A stretch of 7,934 nt of DNA from IMG/VR virus record IMGVR_UViG_2537562231_000020; one strand, written 5' to 3'. The stretch comes from a virus (taxonomy: Duplodnaviria; Heunggongvirae; Uroviricota; Caudoviricetes). Positions within the stretch are counted from its first letter, which is position 1. The number at the start of each line of letters is the position of its first letter. A model generated the notes under the pieces. It was not told where the DNA came from and made no database searches. It was given only the letters and a program-made list of their open reading frames with translations. The position numbers and the translations under genes are program-made. Below are positions 346 through 5,284 of the stretch, in pieces.

Positions 346-918
346 ATGCTGATTGGGTATATCAGGGTGTCAACAAATGACCAGAATACGGCGCTACAAA
401 GAAATGCGCTGGAATGTGCAGGATGTGAGCTGTTTTTCGAAGACAGAATAAGCGGTAAGACAAGGGAGCGTCCCGGACTTAAACGCGCATTAAAGCGACT
501 CCGGCCAGGGGATACCCTGCTGGTCTGGAAACTGGATCGCCTTGGACGCAGTATGCAGCACCTTGTCCTTTTAACAGAAGAACTCCGGCAACGCGGCGTT
601 AACTTCCGCAGCATTACGGACAATATTGATACATCCACTCCCATGGGACGTTTCTTTTTCCATATAATGGGCGCGCTGGCGGAAATGGAGCGGGAACTCA
701 TTATTGAACGTACACGCGCGGGTCTTGCTGCTGCCCGTGCTCAGGGGCGTCATGGCGGCAGACCTCAGAAACTGACAGAGAAAGAGCGGGAGCAAATCGC
801 CCGTTTGCTGGCTAATGGCGAGTCCCGTAAACAAATCGCACTGATATTTGATATTGGCCTTTCCACCCTTTATCGTTATTTTCCTGCCTCACCAGCTCCG
901 TCACCAAAAGTACCGTGA
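346..918 (+). CDS. pin: Serine recombinase, DNA invertase of the Hin/Gin/Pin/Cin family
   Basis: 190-aa ORF with RBS AAGGA at 334-338. N-terminus MLIGYIRVSTNDQNTALQRNALECAGCE carries the catalytic serine motif; GDTLLVWKLDRLGRS, MGRFFFHIMGALAEMERELIIERTRAGL and a C-terminal HTH (KQIALIFDIGLSTLYRY) match the E. coli PinE sequence I recall over most of the length. Confidence 0.93.
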   Translation: MLIGYIRVSTNDQNTALQRNALECAGCELFFEDRISGKTRERPGLKRALKRLRPGDTLLVWKLDRLGRSMQHLVLLTEELRQRGVNFRSITDNIDTSTPMGRFFFHIMGALAEMERELIIERTRAGLAAARAQGRHGGRPQKLTEKEREQIARLLANGESRKQIALIFDIGLSTLYRYFPASPAPSPKVP

Positions 919-1003: not shown

Positions 1004-3058
1004 ATGTCAGACTCCAAGTGGAAAATGCTCTCCGCCATGCCCGGAGAGTTTTCAGTCAAGGTTGCCGGTGGCACGGTGGCATTTATTGAAAGCCCTTTCC
1101 GCCCTTCGGGTAATAAAGGGGGGATCACCTTCGCAGACTGCGTGATCCGCTTCAGCACGAAAGAGCCATTATGGGTAATGCCGGTATCCGGTAATCCCAG
1201 TGCAGAAATCACCAGTTCAGGCGTGACTGGCATCATTCCAATCACATCTGACGTGGCCGGAACGCTCACGCCCTCCGACTGGAATGCACCGGATAACGCC
1301 GGGCCTTCCGGTAGCACGAATGGCAGCAGTTCAGAGCCGGAATATTACTTTGTTGTCATTCTCGCGGGTCAGTCAAATGGCATGGCCTACGGCGAGGGGC
1401 TGCCGTTACCGGATTCGTTTGACCGCCCGGACCCACGCATTAAGCAACTGGCACGCCGCAGTACGGTAACGCCCAACGGTACGTCGTGTACATACAACGA
1501 CATCATTCCGGCAGACCACTGCCTGCATGATGTTCAGGATATGAGCGGGATAAACCACCCGAAAGCTGATCTGGCAAAAGGCCAGTACGGGACTGTCGGT
1601 CAGGGGTTGCATATTGCCAAAAAACTGCTTCCCTATATCCCACAGAATGCCGGGATACTTCTGGTGCCCTGTTGTCGTGGCGGGTCAGCATTCACCACTG
1701 GAGCCGACGGCTCATTCAGTGAGGCCAGCGGTGCTTCCGCTGATTCTTCACGCTGGGGGGCCGGTAAACCTCTGTATCAGGACCTGGTAAGCCGCACCAA
1801 AGTCGCGCTGGCGAAAAACCCGAAAAACAAACTTCTGGCTGTGGTCTGGATGCAGGGAGAGGCAGACCTTGCCTCAGGAAGCCAGCAGCATAATAGTTTA
1901 TTCACGGCCATGGTTCAGCAGTTCAGAACTGACCTGGCTCCGCTTGCTGCGCAGTGCGTGAGTGGAAATGCCACCACGGTGCCGTGGATTTGCGGTGATA
2001 CCACGTATTACTGGAAAAACGCTGGCACCGATAAATATGAGGCAGTATACGGTGGCTACAAAGGCAAGGAAGCACAGAAAATTTTCTTTGTACCGTTCCT
2101 GACGGATGAGAATGGACAGAGCACGCCAACGAATGCTCCGGCGGAAGACCCGGATATTGTGGCTGTCGGGTATTACGGTGCAGCATCCCGAACCCAGGGC
2201 AGTTTTGTTTCGACACAGCGTGACAGCCATTTCAGCTCATGGGCACGCAGGGGCGTCATTTCAGACCGTCTGGCCTCAGCTATTATGCTCCATGCAGGGC
2301 GCACGGCTGAACTGATGCGCGGGCAGACCGTGACACCACCGGATGAGAAGCCGTCACCTGATACACCATCAAAACCGTCCACGCCACCCGCAGACACCAC
2401 GACGATGAGTACGCTATTTGCTTACCGGGCATCTGAGTCTGAAGGACGGTTGACACCACAGGGTTGGGCTGCCGGAGGTGGCAAGGCTCAAATCGTGGAT
2501 GATGCCGGAGCCAGCGGGGGTAAGGCAATGAAACTGACCAAGGAAACAGGAAGAGCCCCCTGGTACCTTGAGCATGATGCTGGTAATGGTGCGGACCTGC
2601 TGGGTAAAGGTGGTCTTGTCAGTTGTCGTTTTAAACTCGATGGCGCGCTTACGGCTAATCAGTACGCACTGGCGCTGTACTGGCCGGTTTCTGCCCTGCC
2701 GCAAGGGGTTACTCTGGAAGGAAATGCCGGTCATAACCTGCTGGCATCGTTCTACGTACAGAGCGATGCCACAGACCTTAACGTGATGTATCACAAAGGA
2801 AACACGGCGCAGAACACGAAGCTGGGGTCATTCGGCGCATTTAATAACGAATGGCATACGCTGGGCTTCCGTTTTGCCGGTAACAACAGTATTGAGGTGA
2901 CGCCGGTCATTGATGGTAAGGACGGGACACCATTCATGCTGTCGCAGTCTCCGGTCGGCACGTTTACGGCAGACAAGTTGCGCGTGACCGATATCACTAA
3001 AAATGCGACTTACCCGGTACTGATTGACAGTATCGTGGTGGAAGTGAATAACGCGTAA
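1004..3058 (+). CDS. SASA/SGNH-type carbohydrate O-acetylesterase (prophage NanS-p-like 9-O-acetyl-sialate esterase) with Pro/Thr linker and C-terminal lectin-like domain
   Basis: 684-aa ORF. Catalytic block VVILAGQSNGMAYGEG (GQSN motif) and downstream VVWMQGEADL (QGE-x-D block) are the signatures of the sialate O-acetylesterase (SASA/DUF303) family. A Pro/Thr-rich linker (PPDEKPSPDTPSKPSTPPADTTT, about nt 2336-2410) precedes a roughly 200-aa beta-rich C-terminal domain that looks lectin or ConA-like. Size and layout resemble the prophage NanS-p esterases of enterohaemorrhagic E. coli. Confidence 0.75.
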   Translation: MSDSKWKMLSAMPGEFSVKVAGGTVAFIESPFRPSGNKGGITFADCVIRFSTKEPLWVMPVSGNPSAEITSSGVTGIIPITSDVAGTLTPSDWNAPDNAGPSGSTNGSSSEPEYYFVVILAGQSNGMAYGEGLPLPDSFDRPDPRIKQLARRSTVTPNGTSCTYNDIIPADHCLHDVQDMSGINHPKADLAKGQYGTVGQGLHIAKKLLPYIPQNAGILLVPCCRGGSAFTTGADGSFSEASGASADSSRWGAGKPLYQDLVSRTKVALAKNPKNKLLAVVWMQGEADLASGSQQHNSLFTAMVQQFRTDLAPLAAQCVSGNATTVPWICGDTTYYWKNAGTDKYEAVYGGYKGKEAQKIFFVPFLTDENGQSTPTNAPAEDPDIVAVGYYGAASRTQGSFVSTQRDSHFSSWARRGVISDRLASAIMLHAGRTAELMRGQTVTPPDEKPSPDTPSKPSTPPADTTTMSTLFAYRASESEGRLTPQGWAAGGGKAQIVDDAGASGGKAMKLTKETGRAPWYLEHDAGNGADLLGKGGLVSCRFKLDGALTANQYALALYWPVSALPQGVTLEGNAGHNLLASFYVQSDATDLNVMYHKGNTAQNTKLGSFGAFNNEWHTLGFRFAGNNSIEVTPVIDGKDGTPFMLSQSPVGTFTADKLRVTDITKNATYPVLIDSIVVEVNNA

Positions 3059-3073
3059 GCAGGATAAAAAAAT

Positions 3074-3106
3074 GCCGCCGGTAAGGGAAAACAAGAAACC
3101 GGCGGC
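3074..3106. terminator. Stem-loop just downstream of the esterase gene; likely a transcript terminator, orientation ambiguous
   Basis: Perfect 9-bp stem GCCGCCGGT (3074-3082) / ACCGGCGGC (3098-3106) with a 15-nt loop. It is flanked by an A7 run upstream (3066-3072) and AAAAAG downstream, so the U-tract is on the minus-strand side. Confidence 0.35.
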
Positions 3107-3202
3107 AAAAAGATCGTTATATCCAAAGCAAAAAATGCAGTGCACCTTTTTACCTAACAGATATTACCGGTGTCAACACCATGTCAATAATTGGGAGGGA
3201 TA

Positions 3203-3385
3203 ATGACATTTTTACAGCTTATTTTATTGTATTTCTGCACGGCAGTATGTGCGTTATATCTGGTGAGTGGTGGTTATAAGGCCATCAGAAATTATGTTCG
3301 CCGCAAAATTGAGGACGCAGCAGCTGAAAAACTCAGTAAAACAGCGCAGGTAACTCCGCTCCCAAAAGACCCGACCCAGCCCTGA
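3203..3385 (+). CDS. Hypothetical small membrane protein (single N-terminal transmembrane helix)
   Basis: ATG at 3203 preceded by GGGAGGG (3193-3199). The ORF track starts it at TTG 3191; I prefer the ATG. Product MTFLQLILLYFCTAVCALYLVSGGYKAIRNYVRRKIEDAAAEKLSKTAQVTPLPKDPTQP has a hydrophobic N-terminus and a charged tail. I recognise no family. Confidence 0.45.
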   Translation: MTFLQLILLYFCTAVCALYLVSGGYKAIRNYVRRKIEDAAAEKLSKTAQVTPLPKDPTQP

Positions 3386-3420
3386 TTGCAGGGCTTTATT
3401 CCCGCATAAGGAGGATATAC

Positions 3421-3675
3421 ATGCCAGAAATTAAAGGCACCGTCACTGAAGACCTGGTAAAACAGGCACTGTATTCCGGTGAAGTAAATAAGTTGCTGAA
3501 AGCGCAGGTCCGCAAGGATTTTGAGGCACAAATCGACACTTACGTTGATGAAGTGCTGGCAAAACTTATTGGGCCAGCAGTTGCGGCCAGTGATGCTGAT
3601 AATGAGCCGAAAACCGACGCGCAGCCAGAGCAACCAGACCCGGCTCAGCCCGGAACTGACAGTACCATGATGTAA
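3421..3675 (+). CDS. Hypothetical small acidic protein
   Basis: 84-aa ORF with a strong RBS (AAGGAGG about 8 nt upstream of the ATG). Helical-looking N-terminal half and an acidic, Pro/Gln-rich, probably disordered C-terminal tail. I recognise no family. Confidence 0.5.
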   Translation: MPEIKGTVTEDLVKQALYSGEVNKLLKAQVRKDFEAQIDTYVDEVLAKLIGPAVAASDADNEPKTDAQPEQPDPAQPGTDSTMM

Positions 3676-3680
3676 CAATA

Positions 3681-3708
3681 CAAACCGGTGGTGTCCTCTG
3701 CCGGTTTG
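3681..3708. terminator. Hairpin between convergent genes (possible bidirectional terminator)
   Basis: Perfect 8-bp stem CAAACCGG (3681-3688) / CCGGTTTG (3701-3708) with a 12-nt loop, 6 nt after the stop of the 84-aa ORF and upstream of the convergent minus-strand gene end at 3843. U-tract is weak. Confidence 0.3.
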
Positions 3709-3842
3709 ACACTAATGAAAACATCTTTGCCGCTATCCAGCCATATGTAATCGCTGGATAGTATTTCGTATTCAGAAATATAGCTGCTTATGGAGCAGTC
3801 AATCCTGCTTCCCCATCCGGGCAGGCAAATGAACCGGTATCA

Positions 3843-4136
3843 TTAGTCCGATTCACGCTTTTGTAGAATCGTTCCCAGAATGCTATACAGCTCATTAGCC
3901 TGTTGCTCCATCATTGAGACGGAGGCTATACGGTGCAAAGTGATTTCAGGAGGTGGCACACCTCCATCTTCTTGCTGTGGAGGAAAAACATAAGATTTAA
4001 TAAAAAAGTTGAAGCATATGAACTCTCCCGCACTCGAACTGTATTTGCAGGCATCTGAATAATCGGAAAAATAATCATTATAGATTTCCGCATTTTCAAT
4101 CATTTTTCGATTTCTCGTCGTTACATGATTGTCCAT
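3843..4136 (-). CDS. Hypothetical protein, low-GC moron-like gene
   Basis: 97-aa minus-strand ORF with RBS AAGAGG 7-8 nt upstream of the ATG (complement of 4137-4150). Markedly AT-rich relative to flanking phage genes. Divergent from com/mom with its own AT-rich upstream region. I recognise no family. Confidence 0.5.
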   Translation of the reverse strand: MDNHVTTRNRKMIENAEIYNDYFSDYSDACKYSSSAGEFICFNFFIKSYVFPPQQEDGGVPPPEITLHRIASVSMMEQQANELYSILGTILQKRESD

Positions 4137-4392
4137 AGCAGCCTCTTACGCTGGCAATTAACCAATTGACTTCTATAAATTAGTTGATTTGTTTGCTTTG
4201 CGGTATTCAAATGTACAATCATTCAGCACTTATGCGTTACAGCACCGTTTAAAATTAGTGATCAAACTCATAAATTTTCGCTAATGACATTTCGTGTTAT
4301 TTGTTGTATCAATTAAATAAATCAAATCGATCGTTTTTGTCGATCGATTGAGTGATAAAGATATCAACAACAAAGCAGGAGGTTATGCGGCC
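4137..4392. promoter_or_regulatory. AT-rich divergent intergenic control region with a GATC triad and an ATCGATCG/CGATCGAT palindrome upstream of com
   Basis: 256-bp AT-rich spacer between divergent genes. Sigma70-like hexamers are present (for example TTTGCT 4192-4197 with TACAAT 4214-4219; ATGACA 4284-4289 with TATCAA 4307-4312). Three GATC sites at 4260, 4329 and 4342; the last two sit in the inverted repeat ATCGATCG (4326-4333) ... CGATCGAT (4341-4348). Exact promoter positions are not determinable by eye. Confidence 0.4.
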
Positions 4393-4593
4393 ATGTATCG
4401 AAACATACGGTGCCGACATTGTAACAAGCTACTGGCACGAGCCAGCTTCAGTTATCTGGAAGTTAAATGTCCGCGCTGTAAAACCCTCAATCAAATCACA
4501 TCTCAGAGCGCCACAGAGCACCCCACATACACAAGGAAATCCTGTCGTGGGGAACAGAAAGCAAGTTACATCCCGTATCATCAGCACGCCTGA
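4393..4593 (+). CDS. com: Com-like zinc-finger translational activator
   Basis: ATG at 4393 with RBS AGGAGG (4377-4382). Product [32 protein letters not shown]... has the paired C-x2-C zinc-finger layout and near-identical spacing to phage Mu Com as I recall it (IRCKNCNKLL...IEVRCPRCK). The ORF-track start at TTG 4348 is an upstream extension I consider unlikely. Confidence 0.85.
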
Positions 4594-5284
4594 ACTTATT
4601 CACTATAACGACAATATCGTCGGTTATGGCTCCCGTGAGTTACGGGTTGAGACAATAAGTTGCTGGCTGGCCCGGCTGGTCGTCGTCAATAAACATTACA
4701 GCCATCGTTTCGTAAATAATTCCTACCTTCATCTGGGCATATTTTCAGAACGGGAGCTGGTTGGCGTAATGCAATGGGGTTATGCCCTTAATCCAAACAA
4801 TGGTGCACGCGTCGTAACTGGCACGCAGAACCGCGAATATATGGAGCTTAACCGGTTATGGCTGCATGACTGTATGCCGAGAAACTCCGAATCAAGGGCA
4901 ATCAGTTACGCGCTCAAACTAATCAGACAACTTTATCCGCAGGTGCAGTGGGTTCAGTCGTTTGCAGATGAGCGTTGTGGCTGTCTTGGTGTCGTGTACC
5001 AGGCAAGCAATTTTGATTATGTAGGCAGTCATGAAACAACATTCTATGAACTTGATGGCGAGTGGTATCACGAGATTTGCAAGAATGCAATCAAACGAGG
5101 AGGACAGCGAGGTGAACATCTGCGGGCTAATATCGACAGAGCCAGTGTTCATAAATTCCGTCAGTTTCGTTACATCCGGTTTCTGGACAAGAGAGCCAGA
5201 AAACGCCTTAACACAAAGCTATTCAAAGTCCAGCCTTACCCAAAACCACAAACAGTTAAAACTGGTTTGAAAGAGAGTGAATGA
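4547..5284 (+). CDS. mom: Mom-like DNA modification protein (acyltransferase-type adenine modification; anti-restriction)
   Basis: Long ORF in a different frame overlapping the 3' end of com, as in the Mu com-mom operon, and sitting downstream of a Gin-family invertase as in Mu. 3' end is firm (stop 5282-5284). The start is uncertain: I placed it at GTG 4547, which is in frame with AAGGA 9 nt upstream, giving 245 aa; the first in-frame ATG is much further downstream. Assignment is mainly by gene context; I could not verify the Mom sequence from memory. Confidence 0.6.

What the first reader, a model, noticed from the sequence alone, without database searches (positions are those of the whole stretch)
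3191..4136. Low-GC islet of three small unknown genes with its own signals
Two co-directional small genes (a 60-aa single-helix membrane protein and an 84-aa acidic protein, both with strong RBSs) face a convergent 97-aa gene across a hairpin. The convergent gene has its own RBS and AT-rich upstream region. The islet is bracketed by hairpins at 3074-3106 and 3681-3708 and is clearly more AT-rich than the flanking phage genes, which suggests separately acquired cargo. A small membrane protein paired with a small soluble protein, plus an independently transcribed gene, is a layout seen in toxin-antitoxin, superinfection-exclusion and anti-defence loci. None of the three matches a family I recognise, so function is open.
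Basis: inference. Interest (0 to 1): 0.5.

Follow-up and report, generated by a model that had tools for sequence, protein, structure and literature searches.

The report
Esterase cassette tail plus orphan gene
The "islet" is not one unit: its first two genes belong to catalogued but uncharacterised families that always follow a prophage sialic-acid esterase gene and a small regulatory-RNA gene, and only the third is a true orphan, so the finding is largely ordinary with some useful new detail.

Summary
The three ORFs, their ribosome-binding sites and both hairpins are real. All three ORFs are under purifying selection. The interpretation needs revising.

- **Genes 1 and 2** are clear members of Pfam DUF1378 and DUF826. 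The identical DNA is already annotated that way in 14 complete E. coli genomes.
- **They are part of a larger cassette:** SASA/DUF6645 (NanS-p-like) esterase, a reverse-strand small RNA, DUF1378, DUF826, hairpin. In 80 viral contigs found with DUF1378, DUF826 follows in 80/80. The esterase precedes in 78/78 testable cases.
- **The cassette occurs in two phage types.** It sits upstream of the holin in lambdoid/Stx prophages. Here it lies between gin and com-mom at the right end of a Mu-like prophage.
- **The "bracketing" hairpin at 3073-3107** is most likely the terminator of a ~75-nt reverse-strand sRNA. This sRNA matches the validated PasA/PasC sRNAs in position and architecture.
- **Gene 3** is an Escherichia/Shigella-restricted orphan. 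It sits in a hypervariable slot beside the com promoter and is replaced by unrelated ORFs in sister prophages.

No toxin-antitoxin or defence signature was found. The biochemical function of all three proteins remains unknown.

The parts
346..918 (+). Gin/Pin-type serine invertase of the Mu-like prophage; marks the upstream border of the accessory region.
   Evidence: Pfam Resolvase 174.6 bits and HTH_7 55.8 bits. RefSeq annotates it as 'recombinase family protein' within a Mu-like gene set: Mor, portal, gpT, sheath.
1004..3058 (+). NanS-p-like sialate O-acetylesterase (SASA catalytic domain plus DUF6645 C-terminal domain); first gene of the cassette.
   Evidence: Pfam SASA 51.3 bits, DUF6645 226.5 bits; phrog_143 986 bits. 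It is 67% identical to the ortholog in a second Mu-like lineage. dN/dS is 0.105-0.109. DNA similarity to the Stx2-phage esterase spans 1336-3048. The first ~110 aa have no Pfam hit.
3147..3176 (-). Sigma-70-like promoter of the reverse-strand small RNA: TTGACA, 18 nt, TAAAAA.
   Evidence: This is the only match in the window, against 0.01 expected. The same motif occurs in 31 of 33 distinct spacer variants. The same rule places the mapped 5' ends of PasA and PasC within 1-2 nt.
3066..3140 (-). Candidate ~75-nt small RNA of the PasA/PasC/Esr41 type. It lies antisense to the esterase-DUF1378 spacer.
   Evidence: RNAfold gives -23 kcal/mol, z = -4.6. The Rfam Esr41 model aligns end to end at 3064-3146 (-) but scores only 22.2 bits against a gathering score of 102. 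The architecture is conserved in 81 of 84 loci. PasA and PasC lie on the strand opposite the esterase, and PasC's terminator abuts the esterase stop codon. Expression was not tested.
3203..3385 (+). DUF1378 family protein, 60 aa. Predicted bitopic inner-membrane protein: transmembrane segment at residues 3-21 and a basic C-terminal part.
   Evidence: PF07125 109.4 bits (cut-off 25); phrog_494 112.7 bits. KD19 is 2.27; residues 25-40 carry 5 K/R against 2 D/E. dN/dS is 0.14-0.30. Conserved motif LYFC..V..LYL.SGGY.
3369..3399 (+). Stem-loop AGCCCTG/CAGGGCT followed by TTTATT, spanning the DUF1378 stop codon. It is specific to the Mu-like lineages.
   Evidence: -12.1 kcal/mol. Present in the window-type and related Mu-like spacers, absent from lambdoid ones. 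Role unknown.
3421..3675 (+). DUF826 family protein, 84 aa. Cytoplasmic, acidic; one long helix followed by a disordered acidic, proline-rich tail ending in MM.
   Evidence: PF05696 58.7 bits (cut-off 25); phrog_311 98.6 bits. AlphaFold2 predicts helices at 10-17 and 20-50 (pLDDT above 90 for 30-50) and a disordered tail at 51-84. pI 4.24. dN/dS is 0.085-0.16. It starts 199-223 nt after the DUF1378 start in 80 of 80 loci.
3681..3708 (.). Hairpin immediately after the DUF826 stop codon; end of the cassette. It lies between the convergent DUF826 and orphan genes.
   Evidence: 8-bp perfect stem. Nearly all of the 28 distinct variants have a hairpin at this position with a different stem sequence. 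Several lambdoid variants follow it with a T-run before the holin.
3843..4136 (-). Orphan 97-aa acidic protein (RefSeq aa from 4103). It occupies a hypervariable slot.
3733..3798 (-). Two stem-loops downstream of the orphan's stop codon (3733-3761 and 3784-3798); possible terminators for the orphan.
   Evidence: Inverted repeat I1 has 12-nt arms, 92% complementary. A terminator-like site lies at 3798-3784 on the minus strand.
4137..4392 (.). AT-rich (GC 0.34) divergent control region between the orphan and com. It contains three GATC sites and a palindrome at 4325-4349.
   Evidence: GC values. GATC sites at 4260, 4329 and 4342, in a window where GATC is depleted overall (11 observed against 27.7 expected). 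Palindrome.
4393..5284 (+). com (4393-4593) and the overlapping mom (4547-5284). This is the conserved downstream border, followed by the Mu-like right end at about 5412.
   Evidence: Pfam Mom 260 bits. Zn_ribbon_Com is recorded on the orthologs. Identity to an independent insertion stops at 5412. From 5413 onward the sequence is interior tape-measure gene.

Best explanation
The region joins two separate accessory units inside the right end of a Mu-like transposable prophage.

**Unit 1 (about 1004-3708): a mobile sialate-esterase cassette.**
- Its order is: NanS-p-like esterase, a reverse-strand PasA/PasC/Esr41-type small RNA gene in the spacer, DUF1378, DUF826, terminal hairpin.
- The same block, in the same order and spacing, lies upstream of the holin in the late region of lambdoid/Stx prophages.
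- The hairpin at 3073-3107 is the Rho-independent terminator of the small RNA, not a boundary of the islet.
- Inferred, not shown: DUF1378 is a bitopic inner-membrane protein with its N-terminus outside and a basic helix in the cytoplasm. DUF826 is a cytoplasmic acidic protein built around one long helix.
- Inferred, not shown: both are made from the esterase transcript and act as a membrane-associated pair alongside the esterase during late expression. Possible roles are positioning or releasing the enzyme, or conditioning the membrane.
- I give this specific role only about 0.3. Placement of the two genes in the cassette is about 0.9.

**Unit 2 (3843-4136, minus strand): a lineage-restricted orphan.**
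- It is a real, weakly constrained gene in a hypervariable slot beside the com/mom control region.
- Its function is unknown. The best guess is a host-interaction protein expressed independently of the cassette.
For: **Family membership**
- Pfam and PHROG hits lie far above cut-offs.
- The identical DNA is annotated as DUF1378/DUF826 in 14 complete genomes.

**Cassette**
- In 80 IMG/VR loci found with DUF1378, DUF826 follows at +199 to +223 nt in 80/80.
- The esterase lies immediately upstream in 78/80. The two exceptions are cut off by the contig end.
- 26 of these loci are Mu-like (followed by com plus mom or a methylase). 54 are lambdoid (followed by holin and lysozyme).
- The order is the same in Stx2 phage II. 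The literature also notes DUF826/DUF1378 ORFs between nanS-p and S (PMC10462455).
- The pair is kept under purifying selection in Mu-like lineages that have diverged to 67% esterase identity and have no adjacent holin.

**Small RNA**
- The promoter motif is unique in the window, with 0.01 matches expected.
- Promoter, hairpin and U-run are present in 31/33 spacer variants.
- Validated PasA (85 nt) and PasC (79 nt) lie on the opposite strand next to the esterase (PMC8550237 Table S6).
- The Esr41 model aligns weakly but over its full length.
- The 2026 preprint places pasA/pasC between the esterase and the holin.

**Orphan**
- It is present in only 10 of the 26 Mu-like loci.
- The slot has at least four alternative contents.
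- dN/dS is 0.37, and the frame is intact in an ortholog that BLASTP puts at 79% identity (76% in the codon alignment).
- Its single remote homolog heads a 3-gene cassette just downstream of the cI repressor in lambdoid prophages.
Against: - No experiment or structural match assigns a function to DUF1378, DUF826 or the orphan.
- E2348/69 prophages PP2 and PP5 carry the esterase and PasA/PasC without DUF1378/DUF826. The esterase therefore does not need the pair, and co-occurrence could reflect linkage rather than shared function.
- The 80 loci are the best-scoring 80 of 324 hits and nearly all come from Escherichia/Shigella. They are not independent samples.
- The window's small RNA scores far below the Rfam Esr41 threshold and shares little body sequence with PasA/PasC.
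- Within its own subfamily the terminator stem is invariant, so there is no covariation evidence.
- Expression of the small RNA is untested.
- No promoter for the esterase cassette was found in the Mu-like context.
Confidence: 0.75

Rival explanations
1. One reading: the three small genes form one self-contained, separately acquired islet that works as a toxin-antitoxin, superinfection-exclusion or anti-defence locus.
For: - A small membrane protein sits next to a small acidic soluble protein, with a convergent gene that has its own signals.
- The orphan and its upstream region are low in GC.
- The orphan's only remote homolog lies in the rex-like position downstream of cI in lambdoid prophages. 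I know that position as a common site for lysogen-expressed exclusion genes.
Against: - The three genes are not inherited together. DUF1378/DUF826 always travel with the esterase. The orphan is replaced by unrelated ORFs in sister prophages.
- There are no meaningful PADLOC hits (only a 12.9-bit PbeC match for DUF826, E 0.0076) and no toxin-antitoxin or defence hits in Pfam or NCBIfam.
- In lambdoid phages the pair lies in the late operon between the esterase and the holin.
Confidence: 0.1
2. DUF1378 and DUF826 are lysis-timing factors (antiholin-like or holin-accessory) that belong to the lambdoid lysis cassette. They were carried into Mu-like phages together with the esterase.
For: - In 54 of 54 lambdoid loci the pair lies 530-1131 nt upstream of the S holin start and ahead of the lysozyme gene.
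- DUF1378 has the generic shape of a small lysis-related membrane protein: one transmembrane segment and a charged C-terminus.
- A membrane protein paired with a cytoplasmic one recalls T4 RI/RIII (my own knowledge).
Against: - The pair is maintained under purifying selection (dN/dS 0.09-0.30) in two diverged Mu-like lineages. There the lysis genes lie about 18 kb away and no class II holin is adjacent.
- Lambdoid prophages with the same kind of holin exist without the pair (E2348/69 PP2).
- There is no Pfam holin or antiholin match.
- A hairpin, often followed by a T-run, separates DUF826 from the holin.
Confidence: 0.15
3. DUF1378 is a type I toxin-like membrane peptide, and the divergent reverse-strand small RNA is its antitoxin. 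This would follow the tisB/istR or zor/orz layout.
For: - A 60-aa hydrophobic peptide gene has an sRNA gene transcribed divergently. The sRNA's -35 box lies 27-32 nt upstream of the peptide's start codon.
- This layout resembles known type I systems (my own knowledge).
Against: - sRNA alleles assort independently of DUF1378 alleles.
  - L025 has near-identical flanks but only 43% spacer identity.
  - L039 has the same sRNA type with a DUF1378 that is 63% identical.
- PasA and PasC exist without DUF1378 and behave as trans-acting, Hfq-dependent sRNAs with many targets.
- DUF1378 has a conserved 35-aa cytoplasmic part and an obligate protein partner. Neither is typical of type I toxins.
Confidence: 0.05
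4. The 97-aa reverse-strand ORF is not a functional gene. It is only an open frame in AT-rich spacer DNA.
For: - It has no family hit anywhere and a very narrow taxonomic range.
- Truncated or frameshifted variants exist (P0011, P0013).
- The structure model is of modest confidence, pLDDT 66.
Against: - dN/dS is 0.37, with about 15 synonymous against 25 non-synonymous changes where neutrality predicts a ratio near 1:4.
- The frame and length are kept in an ortholog that BLASTP puts at 79% identity (76% in the codon alignment), found at six different chromosomal insertion sites.
- It has a good Shine-Dalgarno sequence.
- A same-length remote homolog (31% identity over 80 aa) occurs in an unrelated prophage context.
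Confidence: 0.15

Closest known systems
nanS-p region of Stx/lambdoid prophages (933W L0105 region; Stx2 phage II ORFs C75-C81): stx - sRNAs - nanS-p - DUF1378 - DUF826 - S holin
   Same: - Same gene order and spacing: esterase, DUF1378, DUF826.
- Same Pfam families.
- Esterase DNA similarity of 67-80% over the catalytic and C-terminal domains.
- A reverse-strand sRNA-like unit in the same spacer.
   Different: - Here the cassette sits between gin and com-mom of a Mu-like transposable prophage, not downstream of Q/pR' and upstream of a holin.
- The esterase N-terminal ~110 aa are unrelated, with no Pfam hit.
- The small proteins are only 51% (DUF1378) and 42% (DUF826) identical to the Stx-phage versions.
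- The Mu-like lineages have a strong Shine-Dalgarno sequence and an extra hairpin between the two small genes.
PasA / PasC sRNAs of EPEC E2348/69 (homologs EcOnc51/52 in EHEC) and Esr41 (Rfam RF02676)
   Same: - Encoded on the strand opposite the esterase, directly downstream of its stop codon.
- TTGACA-type promoter, length 75-85 nt, GC-rich terminator followed by a U-run.
- The Esr41 model aligns over its full length at the same place and strand.
   Different: - The body and putative seed sequence are different.
- The Rfam score of 22 bits is far below the gathering score of 102.
- No expression or Hfq-binding data exist for this allele.
- Esr41 itself is reported on the SpLE1 island, not next to an esterase (PMC5286369).
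Phage Mu right end (gin - com - mom - attR)
   Same: - Invertase, then a Com zinc-ribbon gene overlapping the start of mom, then the element end.
- A cluster of GATC sites lies upstream of com.
   Different: - As I recall it, Mu has nothing between gin and com. Here 3.4 kb of cargo is inserted: the esterase cassette and the variable slot.
- Sister prophages replace mom with a C5 cytosine methylase.
Phage morons (for example HK97 gp15, lambda bor/lom, rexAB)
   Same: - The orphan has its own orientation, a Shine-Dalgarno sequence, stem-loops downstream, low GC, and is present or absent among close relatives.
   Different: - No promoter could be identified.
- There is no homology to any characterised moron product.
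- The DUF1378/DUF826 pair has no conserved forward-strand promoter of its own. It appears to depend on the esterase transcript.

Membership tests
Pfam PF07125 (DUF1378) | Score at or above the gathering threshold over the full-length model | tested here: met
   109.4 bits against a 25-bit cut-off; residues 1-58 match model positions 1-58 of 59. phrog_494 scores 112.7 bits.
Pfam PF07125 (DUF1378) | About 60 aa with a single N-terminal hydrophobic helix and the conserved SGGY motif | tested here: met
   KD19 is 2.27 at residues 3-21. Invariant residues L9 Y10 F11 C12 ... S22 G23 G24 Y25 across Mu-like and Stx versions.
Pfam PF05696 (DUF826) | Score at or above the gathering threshold | tested here: met
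   58.7 bits against a 25-bit cut-off; residues 1-57 match model positions 1-58 of 75. phrog_311 scores 98.6 bits over the full length.
NanS-p esterase cassette (esterase - DUF1378 - DUF826) | SASA esterase immediately upstream on the same strand, and DUF826 immediately downstream of DUF1378 | tested here: met
   Window order is 1004-3058, 3203-3385, 3421-3675. The same order holds in 78/78 and 80/80 loci.
NanS-p (prophage sialate O-acetylesterase) | SASA/SGNH catalytic domain and the C-terminal domain | tested here: met
   SASA 51.3 bits (cut-off 24.8) and DUF6645 226.5 bits (cut-off 27). The GQSN block is present at residues 122-125 of the translation.
NanS-p (prophage sialate O-acetylesterase) | N-terminal DUF1737 domain, described for Stx-phage NanS-p (recalled from the literature, not re-verified here) | tested here: not met
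   Residues 1-114 have no Pfam hit. phrog_143 aligns only from residue 71.
NanS-p (prophage sialate O-acetylesterase) | Deacetylation of 9-O-acetylated sialic acid | not testable with these tools
   This requires an enzyme assay.
PasA/PasC/Esr41-type prophage sRNA | Gene on the strand opposite the esterase, in the spacer after its stop codon, with a sigma-70 promoter and an intrinsic terminator | tested here: met
   Promoter at 3176-3147, stem at 3107-3073 plus U7. PasA and PasC have the same layout.
PasA/PasC/Esr41-type prophage sRNA | Rfam Esr41 (RF02676) gathering score | tested here: not met
   22.2 bits against a gathering score of 102, E = 0.11 in a 900-nt search. No hit when the whole window was scanned at E <= 1.
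PasA/PasC/Esr41-type prophage sRNA | Expressed, Hfq-dependent transcript of the predicted size | not testable with these tools
   Requires a Northern blot, RNA-seq or RIL-seq in a carrier strain.
Known anti-phage defence or toxin-antitoxin systems | Match to a PADLOC model, or to a Pfam/NCBIfam toxin or antitoxin family | tested here: not met
   No meaningful PADLOC hit: DUF1378 and the orphan have none, and DUF826 has only PbeC at E 0.0076, 12.9 bits. Pfam and NCBIfam gave no toxin-antitoxin or defence family.
Type I toxin-antitoxin (membrane peptide plus antisense/divergent sRNA) | The sRNA and the toxin gene co-evolve as a pair | tested here: not met
   The spacer (sRNA) allele is exchanged independently of DUF1378 alleles. 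PasA and PasC occur without DUF1378.
Holins | Match to a holin family; at least one transmembrane segment plus a charged C-terminus; adjacency to an endolysin | tested here: inconclusive
   No Pfam holin hit. The generic shape is present. An endolysin lies nearby only in the lambdoid context, and there a separate S holin is present.
Mu-like transposable prophage, right end | gin-type invertase, com overlapping a DNA-modification gene, element end with variable flanks | tested here: met
   six different chromosomal insertion sites; the flank is an interrupted tape-measure gene.

The most novel reading that the evidence does not exclude
The DUF1378/DUF826 pair could be a dedicated two-protein membrane device. 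It would let prophages deliver or release the signal-peptide-less NanS-p esterase, or otherwise remodel the inner membrane, independently of the phage's own lysis system. That would explain why the pair travels with the esterase into phages with unrelated lysis machinery. A second possibility is that the orphan and its cI-adjacent relative define a new family of small acidic prophage proteins acting in defence or counter-defence.
Probability: 0.1. Interest if true: 0.6.

Novelty: new member of a known kind. Interest (0 to 1): 0.3.

Why it matters
- NanS-p esterases are thought to help pathogenic E. coli grow on O-acetylated mucin sugars. PasA/PasC/Esr41-type sRNAs connect prophages to host regulation.
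- The esterase, an sRNA gene and two uncharacterised small proteins form one block. That block moves between lambdoid and Mu-like prophages. This gives a concrete hypothesis for two very widespread DUF families: test them together with the esterase.
- It also flags a possible new sRNA allele.
- The variable slot beside com/mom, and the swap of mom for a cytosine methylase, mark a small hotspot for accessory genes in Mu-like prophages.
- None of this overturns current understanding.

Tried and rejected
1. A genome-contig scan with the DUF1378 alignment matched 268 patterns, but none was confirmed by tblastn. I used IMG/VR instead.
2. I had recalled that K-12 Qin genes ynfN/ynfO belong to these families. 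The K-12 annotation does not support this, so I dropped it.
3. A possible DUF1378-DUF826 fusion protein (P0099), and the 134-148-aa 'DUF826' proteins and phrog_8301, turned out to be frameshift or wrong-start artefacts. They overlap DUF1378 in another frame.
4. A PDB sequence search with the DUF826 profile found nothing meaningful; the best E-value was 0.01.
6. The afdb50 fold library was unavailable.
7. No fold search was run for DUF826, because the model is essentially one long helix.
8. RNAalifold on the window's sRNA subfamily showed an invariant stem and no covariation. Across subfamilies the sequences cannot be aligned reliably, so I claim conserved architecture, not covariation.
9. A literature search for locus tags of the Stx-phage orthologs returned nothing relevant.
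10. The promoter scan found no convincing promoter for the orphan or for the esterase.
Full report
**1. What is in the sequence**

The window reads as follows.

| Coordinates | Strand | Feature |
|---|---|---|
| 346-918 | + | Gin-type invertase |
| 1004-3058 | + | 684-aa protein with a SASA esterase domain and a DUF6645 C-terminal domain |
| 3203-3385 | + | Finding ORF 1 (60 aa) |
| 3421-3675 | + | Finding ORF 2 (84 aa) |
| 3843-4136 | - | Finding ORF 3 (97 aa) |
| 4393-4593 | + | com |
| 4547-5284 | + | mom (overlaps com) |
| 5413-6944 | + | C-terminal two-thirds of a lambda-type tape-measure gene |
| 6937 onward | + | Minor tail genes |

- The first 5412 bases are 99.98% identical to a prophage in E. 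coli JKHS016. That prophage carries Mor, Mu-type portal, gpT head, sheath and baseplate genes.
- Identity stops at 5412. From 5413 onward the sequence is 100% identical to the interior of intact tape-measure genes in many genomes.
- The finding therefore lies at the right end of a Mu-like transposable prophage that has inserted into a lambdoid prophage's tape-measure gene.
- Orthologous prophages sit at six different chromosomal sites, as expected for a transposable phage.

**2. Checking the observation**

- The ORFs, their Shine-Dalgarno sequences and both hairpins are present as described.
- Protein 1 has one hydrophobic segment (residues 3-21) followed by a basic stretch. Protein 2 is strongly acidic.
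- All three ORFs show purifying selection against diverged orthologs:

| ORF | dN/dS | Comparison |
|---|---|---|
| DUF1378 | 0.14 and 0.30 | Two diverged orthologs |
| DUF826 | 0.085 and 0.16 | Two diverged orthologs |
| Third ORF | 0.37 | P0010 ortholog: 79% identical by BLASTP, 76% in the codon alignment |
| Esterase (reference) | 0.105-0.109 | Two diverged orthologs |

- That ortholog has no internal Met. This favours the 97-aa start with the AAGAGG site over RefSeq's 86-aa call.
- The compositional claim is only partly right:
  - DUF826 has GC 0.50, close to the flanks.
  - The GC trough (0.34-0.40) covers the third ORF and the region upstream of com.

**3. Genes 1 and 2 are known families and part of a larger cassette**

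- ORF 1 matches Pfam DUF1378 at 109 bits and ORF 2 matches DUF826 at 59 bits, both against 25-bit cut-offs. Matching PHROGs are 494 and 311.
- The identical 1.4-kb DNA is present and annotated this way in 14 complete E. coli genomes.
- Searches of 5.8 billion proteins returned 179 and 244 clusters at E <= 0.001. Among the 120 best listed for each, every source-supplied name is Escherichia or Shigella.
- In Stx2 phage II the order is stx2AB, SASA esterase (IS-disrupted), DUF1378, DUF826, S holin, lysozyme.
- A 2023 survey of Stx2a phages notes DUF826/DUF1378 ORFs between nanS-p and S (PMC10462455).

I collected 80 IMG/VR loci with a DUF1378 profile and scored their neighbours.

| Measure | Result |
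|---|---|
| DUF826 starts 199-223 nt after the DUF1378 start | 80 of 80 |
| Esterase directly upstream, same strand | 78 of 80 (the other two have under 190 nt of upstream sequence) |
| Mu-like context (followed by com plus mom or a methylase; gin upstream in most) | 26 loci |
| Lambdoid context (holin and lysozyme downstream) | 54 loci |

- The pair is thus tied to the esterase, not to a particular phage type or to the holin.
- The reverse does not hold. E2348/69 prophages PP2 and PP5 have the esterase without the pair.

**4. The 'left bracket' hairpin is most likely an sRNA terminator**

- The 144-nt spacer between the esterase stop and the DUF1378 start keeps one architecture across 33 distinct sequence versions.
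- On the reverse strand it reads:
  - TTGAC(A/T/G), then 17-19 nt, then an A-rich -10 box;
  - 73-104 nt further on, a GC-rich hairpin and a run of 6-8 U that abuts the esterase stop codon.
- 31 of 33 versions (81 of 84 loci) fit this pattern.
- In the window:

| Element | Coordinates (reverse strand) |
|---|---|
| Promoter | 3176-3147; the only match in the window, 0.01 expected |
| Predicted 5' end | about 3140 |
| Terminator stem | 3107-3073 |
| U-run end | 3066 |

- The fold energy is -23 kcal/mol with z = -4.6.
- Two experimentally validated sRNAs have exactly this layout (PMC8550237 Table S6):
  - PasA: 85 nt, opposite strand, between the esterase and the holin.
  - PasC: 79 nt, with its terminator abutting the esterase stop.
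- My promoter rule places their mapped 5' ends within 1-2 nt.
- A 2026 preprint places pasA/pasC between the sialic-acid esterase and the holin, and pasD upstream of the esterase.
- The Rfam Esr41 model aligns end to end at 3064-3146 (-), but at 22 bits against a gathering score of 102.
- I therefore file the window's element as a positional and architectural relative, not as a proven family member. Its expression is untested.
- The spacer is exchanged as a cassette:
  - L025 has a 99.8% identical esterase 3' end and a 99.4% identical DUF826, but only 43% spacer identity.
  - L039 shares the window's sRNA type (84% spacer identity) while carrying lambdoid-type small genes.
- This argues against the sRNA being a dedicated partner of DUF1378.
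- The second hairpin (3681-3708), just after the DUF826 stop, is also conserved in position. Its stem sequence varies, and several lambdoid versions follow it with a T-run before the holin.

**5. What the pair may do**

- Nothing in Pfam, NCBIfam, PADLOC, PDB sequence search or the literature assigns a function.
- From sequence, DUF1378 looks like a bitopic inner-membrane protein:
  - its N-terminus carries no charge;
  - five K/R residues follow the transmembrane segment.
  By the positive-inside rule this gives N-out, C-in.
- AlphaFold2 predicts DUF826 as one long helix (residues 20-50, pLDDT above 90) plus a disordered acidic tail that always ends in M-M.
- The pair has fixed order and spacing, complementary charges, and joint conservation in two phage backgrounds. 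My best inference is a membrane-associated complex made from the esterase transcript, acting alongside the esterase during late expression.
- I put the specific role at about 0.3. The alternatives are listed as rivals:
  - lysis timing;
  - exclusion or toxin-antitoxin;
  - type I toxin plus sRNA.

**6. Gene 3 is a separate orphan in a variable slot**

- It has no hit in any profile library.
- Close homologs (79% identity or more) occur only in Escherichia/Shigella.
- A full HMMER scan of 1.84 billion representative proteins found one remote relative, P0015 (31% identity over 80 aa, also 97 aa long).
- P0015 heads a 97-95-123-aa cassette immediately downstream of the cI-type repressor in lambdoid prophages. 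That cassette has no PADLOC or Pfam annotation.
- Among the 26 Mu-like loci, the slot between DUF826 and com holds:
  - the orphan in 10 loci;
  - an unrelated 64-aa Cys-rich ORF in 8 loci;
  - other ORFans in the remainder.
  Where it could be measured (22 loci), the slot is 463-933 nt long and always low in GC (0.38-0.42).
- The orphan is transcribed away from an AT-rich region that it shares with com. That region carries three GATC sites in a window otherwise depleted of GATC. From my own knowledge, this recalls the Dam/OxyR control region of Mu mom.

**7. Verdict**

- The region is accessory cargo, but it is not a three-gene unit and not unrecognisable.
- Two genes are members of known, uncharacterised families within a known esterase cassette. 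One hairpin belongs to a likely sRNA gene. One gene is a true orphan.
- New points:
  - the cassette's presence and maintenance in Mu-like prophages;
  - the fixed esterase / DUF1378 / DUF826 linkage;
  - the swapping of the sRNA spacer as a cassette;
  - the variable slot beside com/mom.
- Interest is modest.

Noticed in passing
window 5285-5700 (junction at 5412/5413): The right end of the Mu-like prophage is inserted inside a lambda-type tape-measure gene. Sequence from 5413 onward is 100% identical to intact tape-measure genes in many E. coli genomes. No complete genome in the collection contains this exact junction.
   Followed up: partly
L003 7083-8289; also L021, L029, L031: Sister Mu-like prophages keep com but replace mom with a C5 cytosine DNA methylase (PF00145, 146 bits). 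This suggests that Com-type control is used for a different DNA-modification enzyme.
   Followed up: partly
window 4260-4349: Three GATC sites lie within 86 nt upstream of com, two of them in the palindrome AATCGATCG/CGATCGATT. GATC is strongly depleted in the window overall (11 observed against 27.7 expected). This resembles the Dam-dependent control region of Mu mom.
   Followed up: partly
window 3676-4392 and the equivalent slot in L012-L036: The slot between DUF826 and com is hypervariable. It has at least four alternative contents (463-933 nt, GC 0.38-0.42), all without known families. One is a 64-aa Cys-rich ORF; another is a pair of 66-aa and 68-aa ORFs.
   Followed up: partly
window 3059-3202 compared with L025 and L039: The sRNA-bearing spacer is exchanged as a cassette. 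L025 has near-identical flanks (99.8% and 99.4%) but only 43% spacer identity. L039 shares the window's spacer type (84%) while its small genes are of the lambdoid type.
   Followed up: yes
L073 (and loci sharing its spacer type): These are hybrid loci. A gin gene and a Mu-type esterase (99% identical) are followed by lambdoid-type DUF826, S holin and lysozyme. They look like recombinants between Mu-like and lambdoid prophages through the shared cassette.
   Followed up: no
L091-L095, 6001-6951: The orphan's only remote homolog (P0015) heads a conserved 97-95-123-aa cassette. It lies just downstream of the cI-type repressor in lambdoid prophages, and in one locus next to a large serine recombinase. 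It has no PADLOC or Pfam annotation.
   Followed up: partly
L002 5047-5493; proteins P0083, P0113; phrog_8301: Many database 'DUF826' proteins of 134-148 aa are mis-annotated. Their N-terminal extensions come from an upstream start in a frame that overlaps DUF1378.
   Followed up: yes
window 3369-3399: A stem-loop (AGCCCTG/CAGGGCT followed by TTTATT, -12 kcal/mol) spans the DUF1378 stop codon. It is found only in the Mu-like lineages and may tune the ratio of the two small proteins.
   Followed up: partly
window 1004-1345: The first ~110 aa of the esterase have no Pfam hit and are not shared with Stx-phage NanS-p at the DNA level. The Mu-like esterases therefore carry a different N-terminal module.
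   Followed up: no
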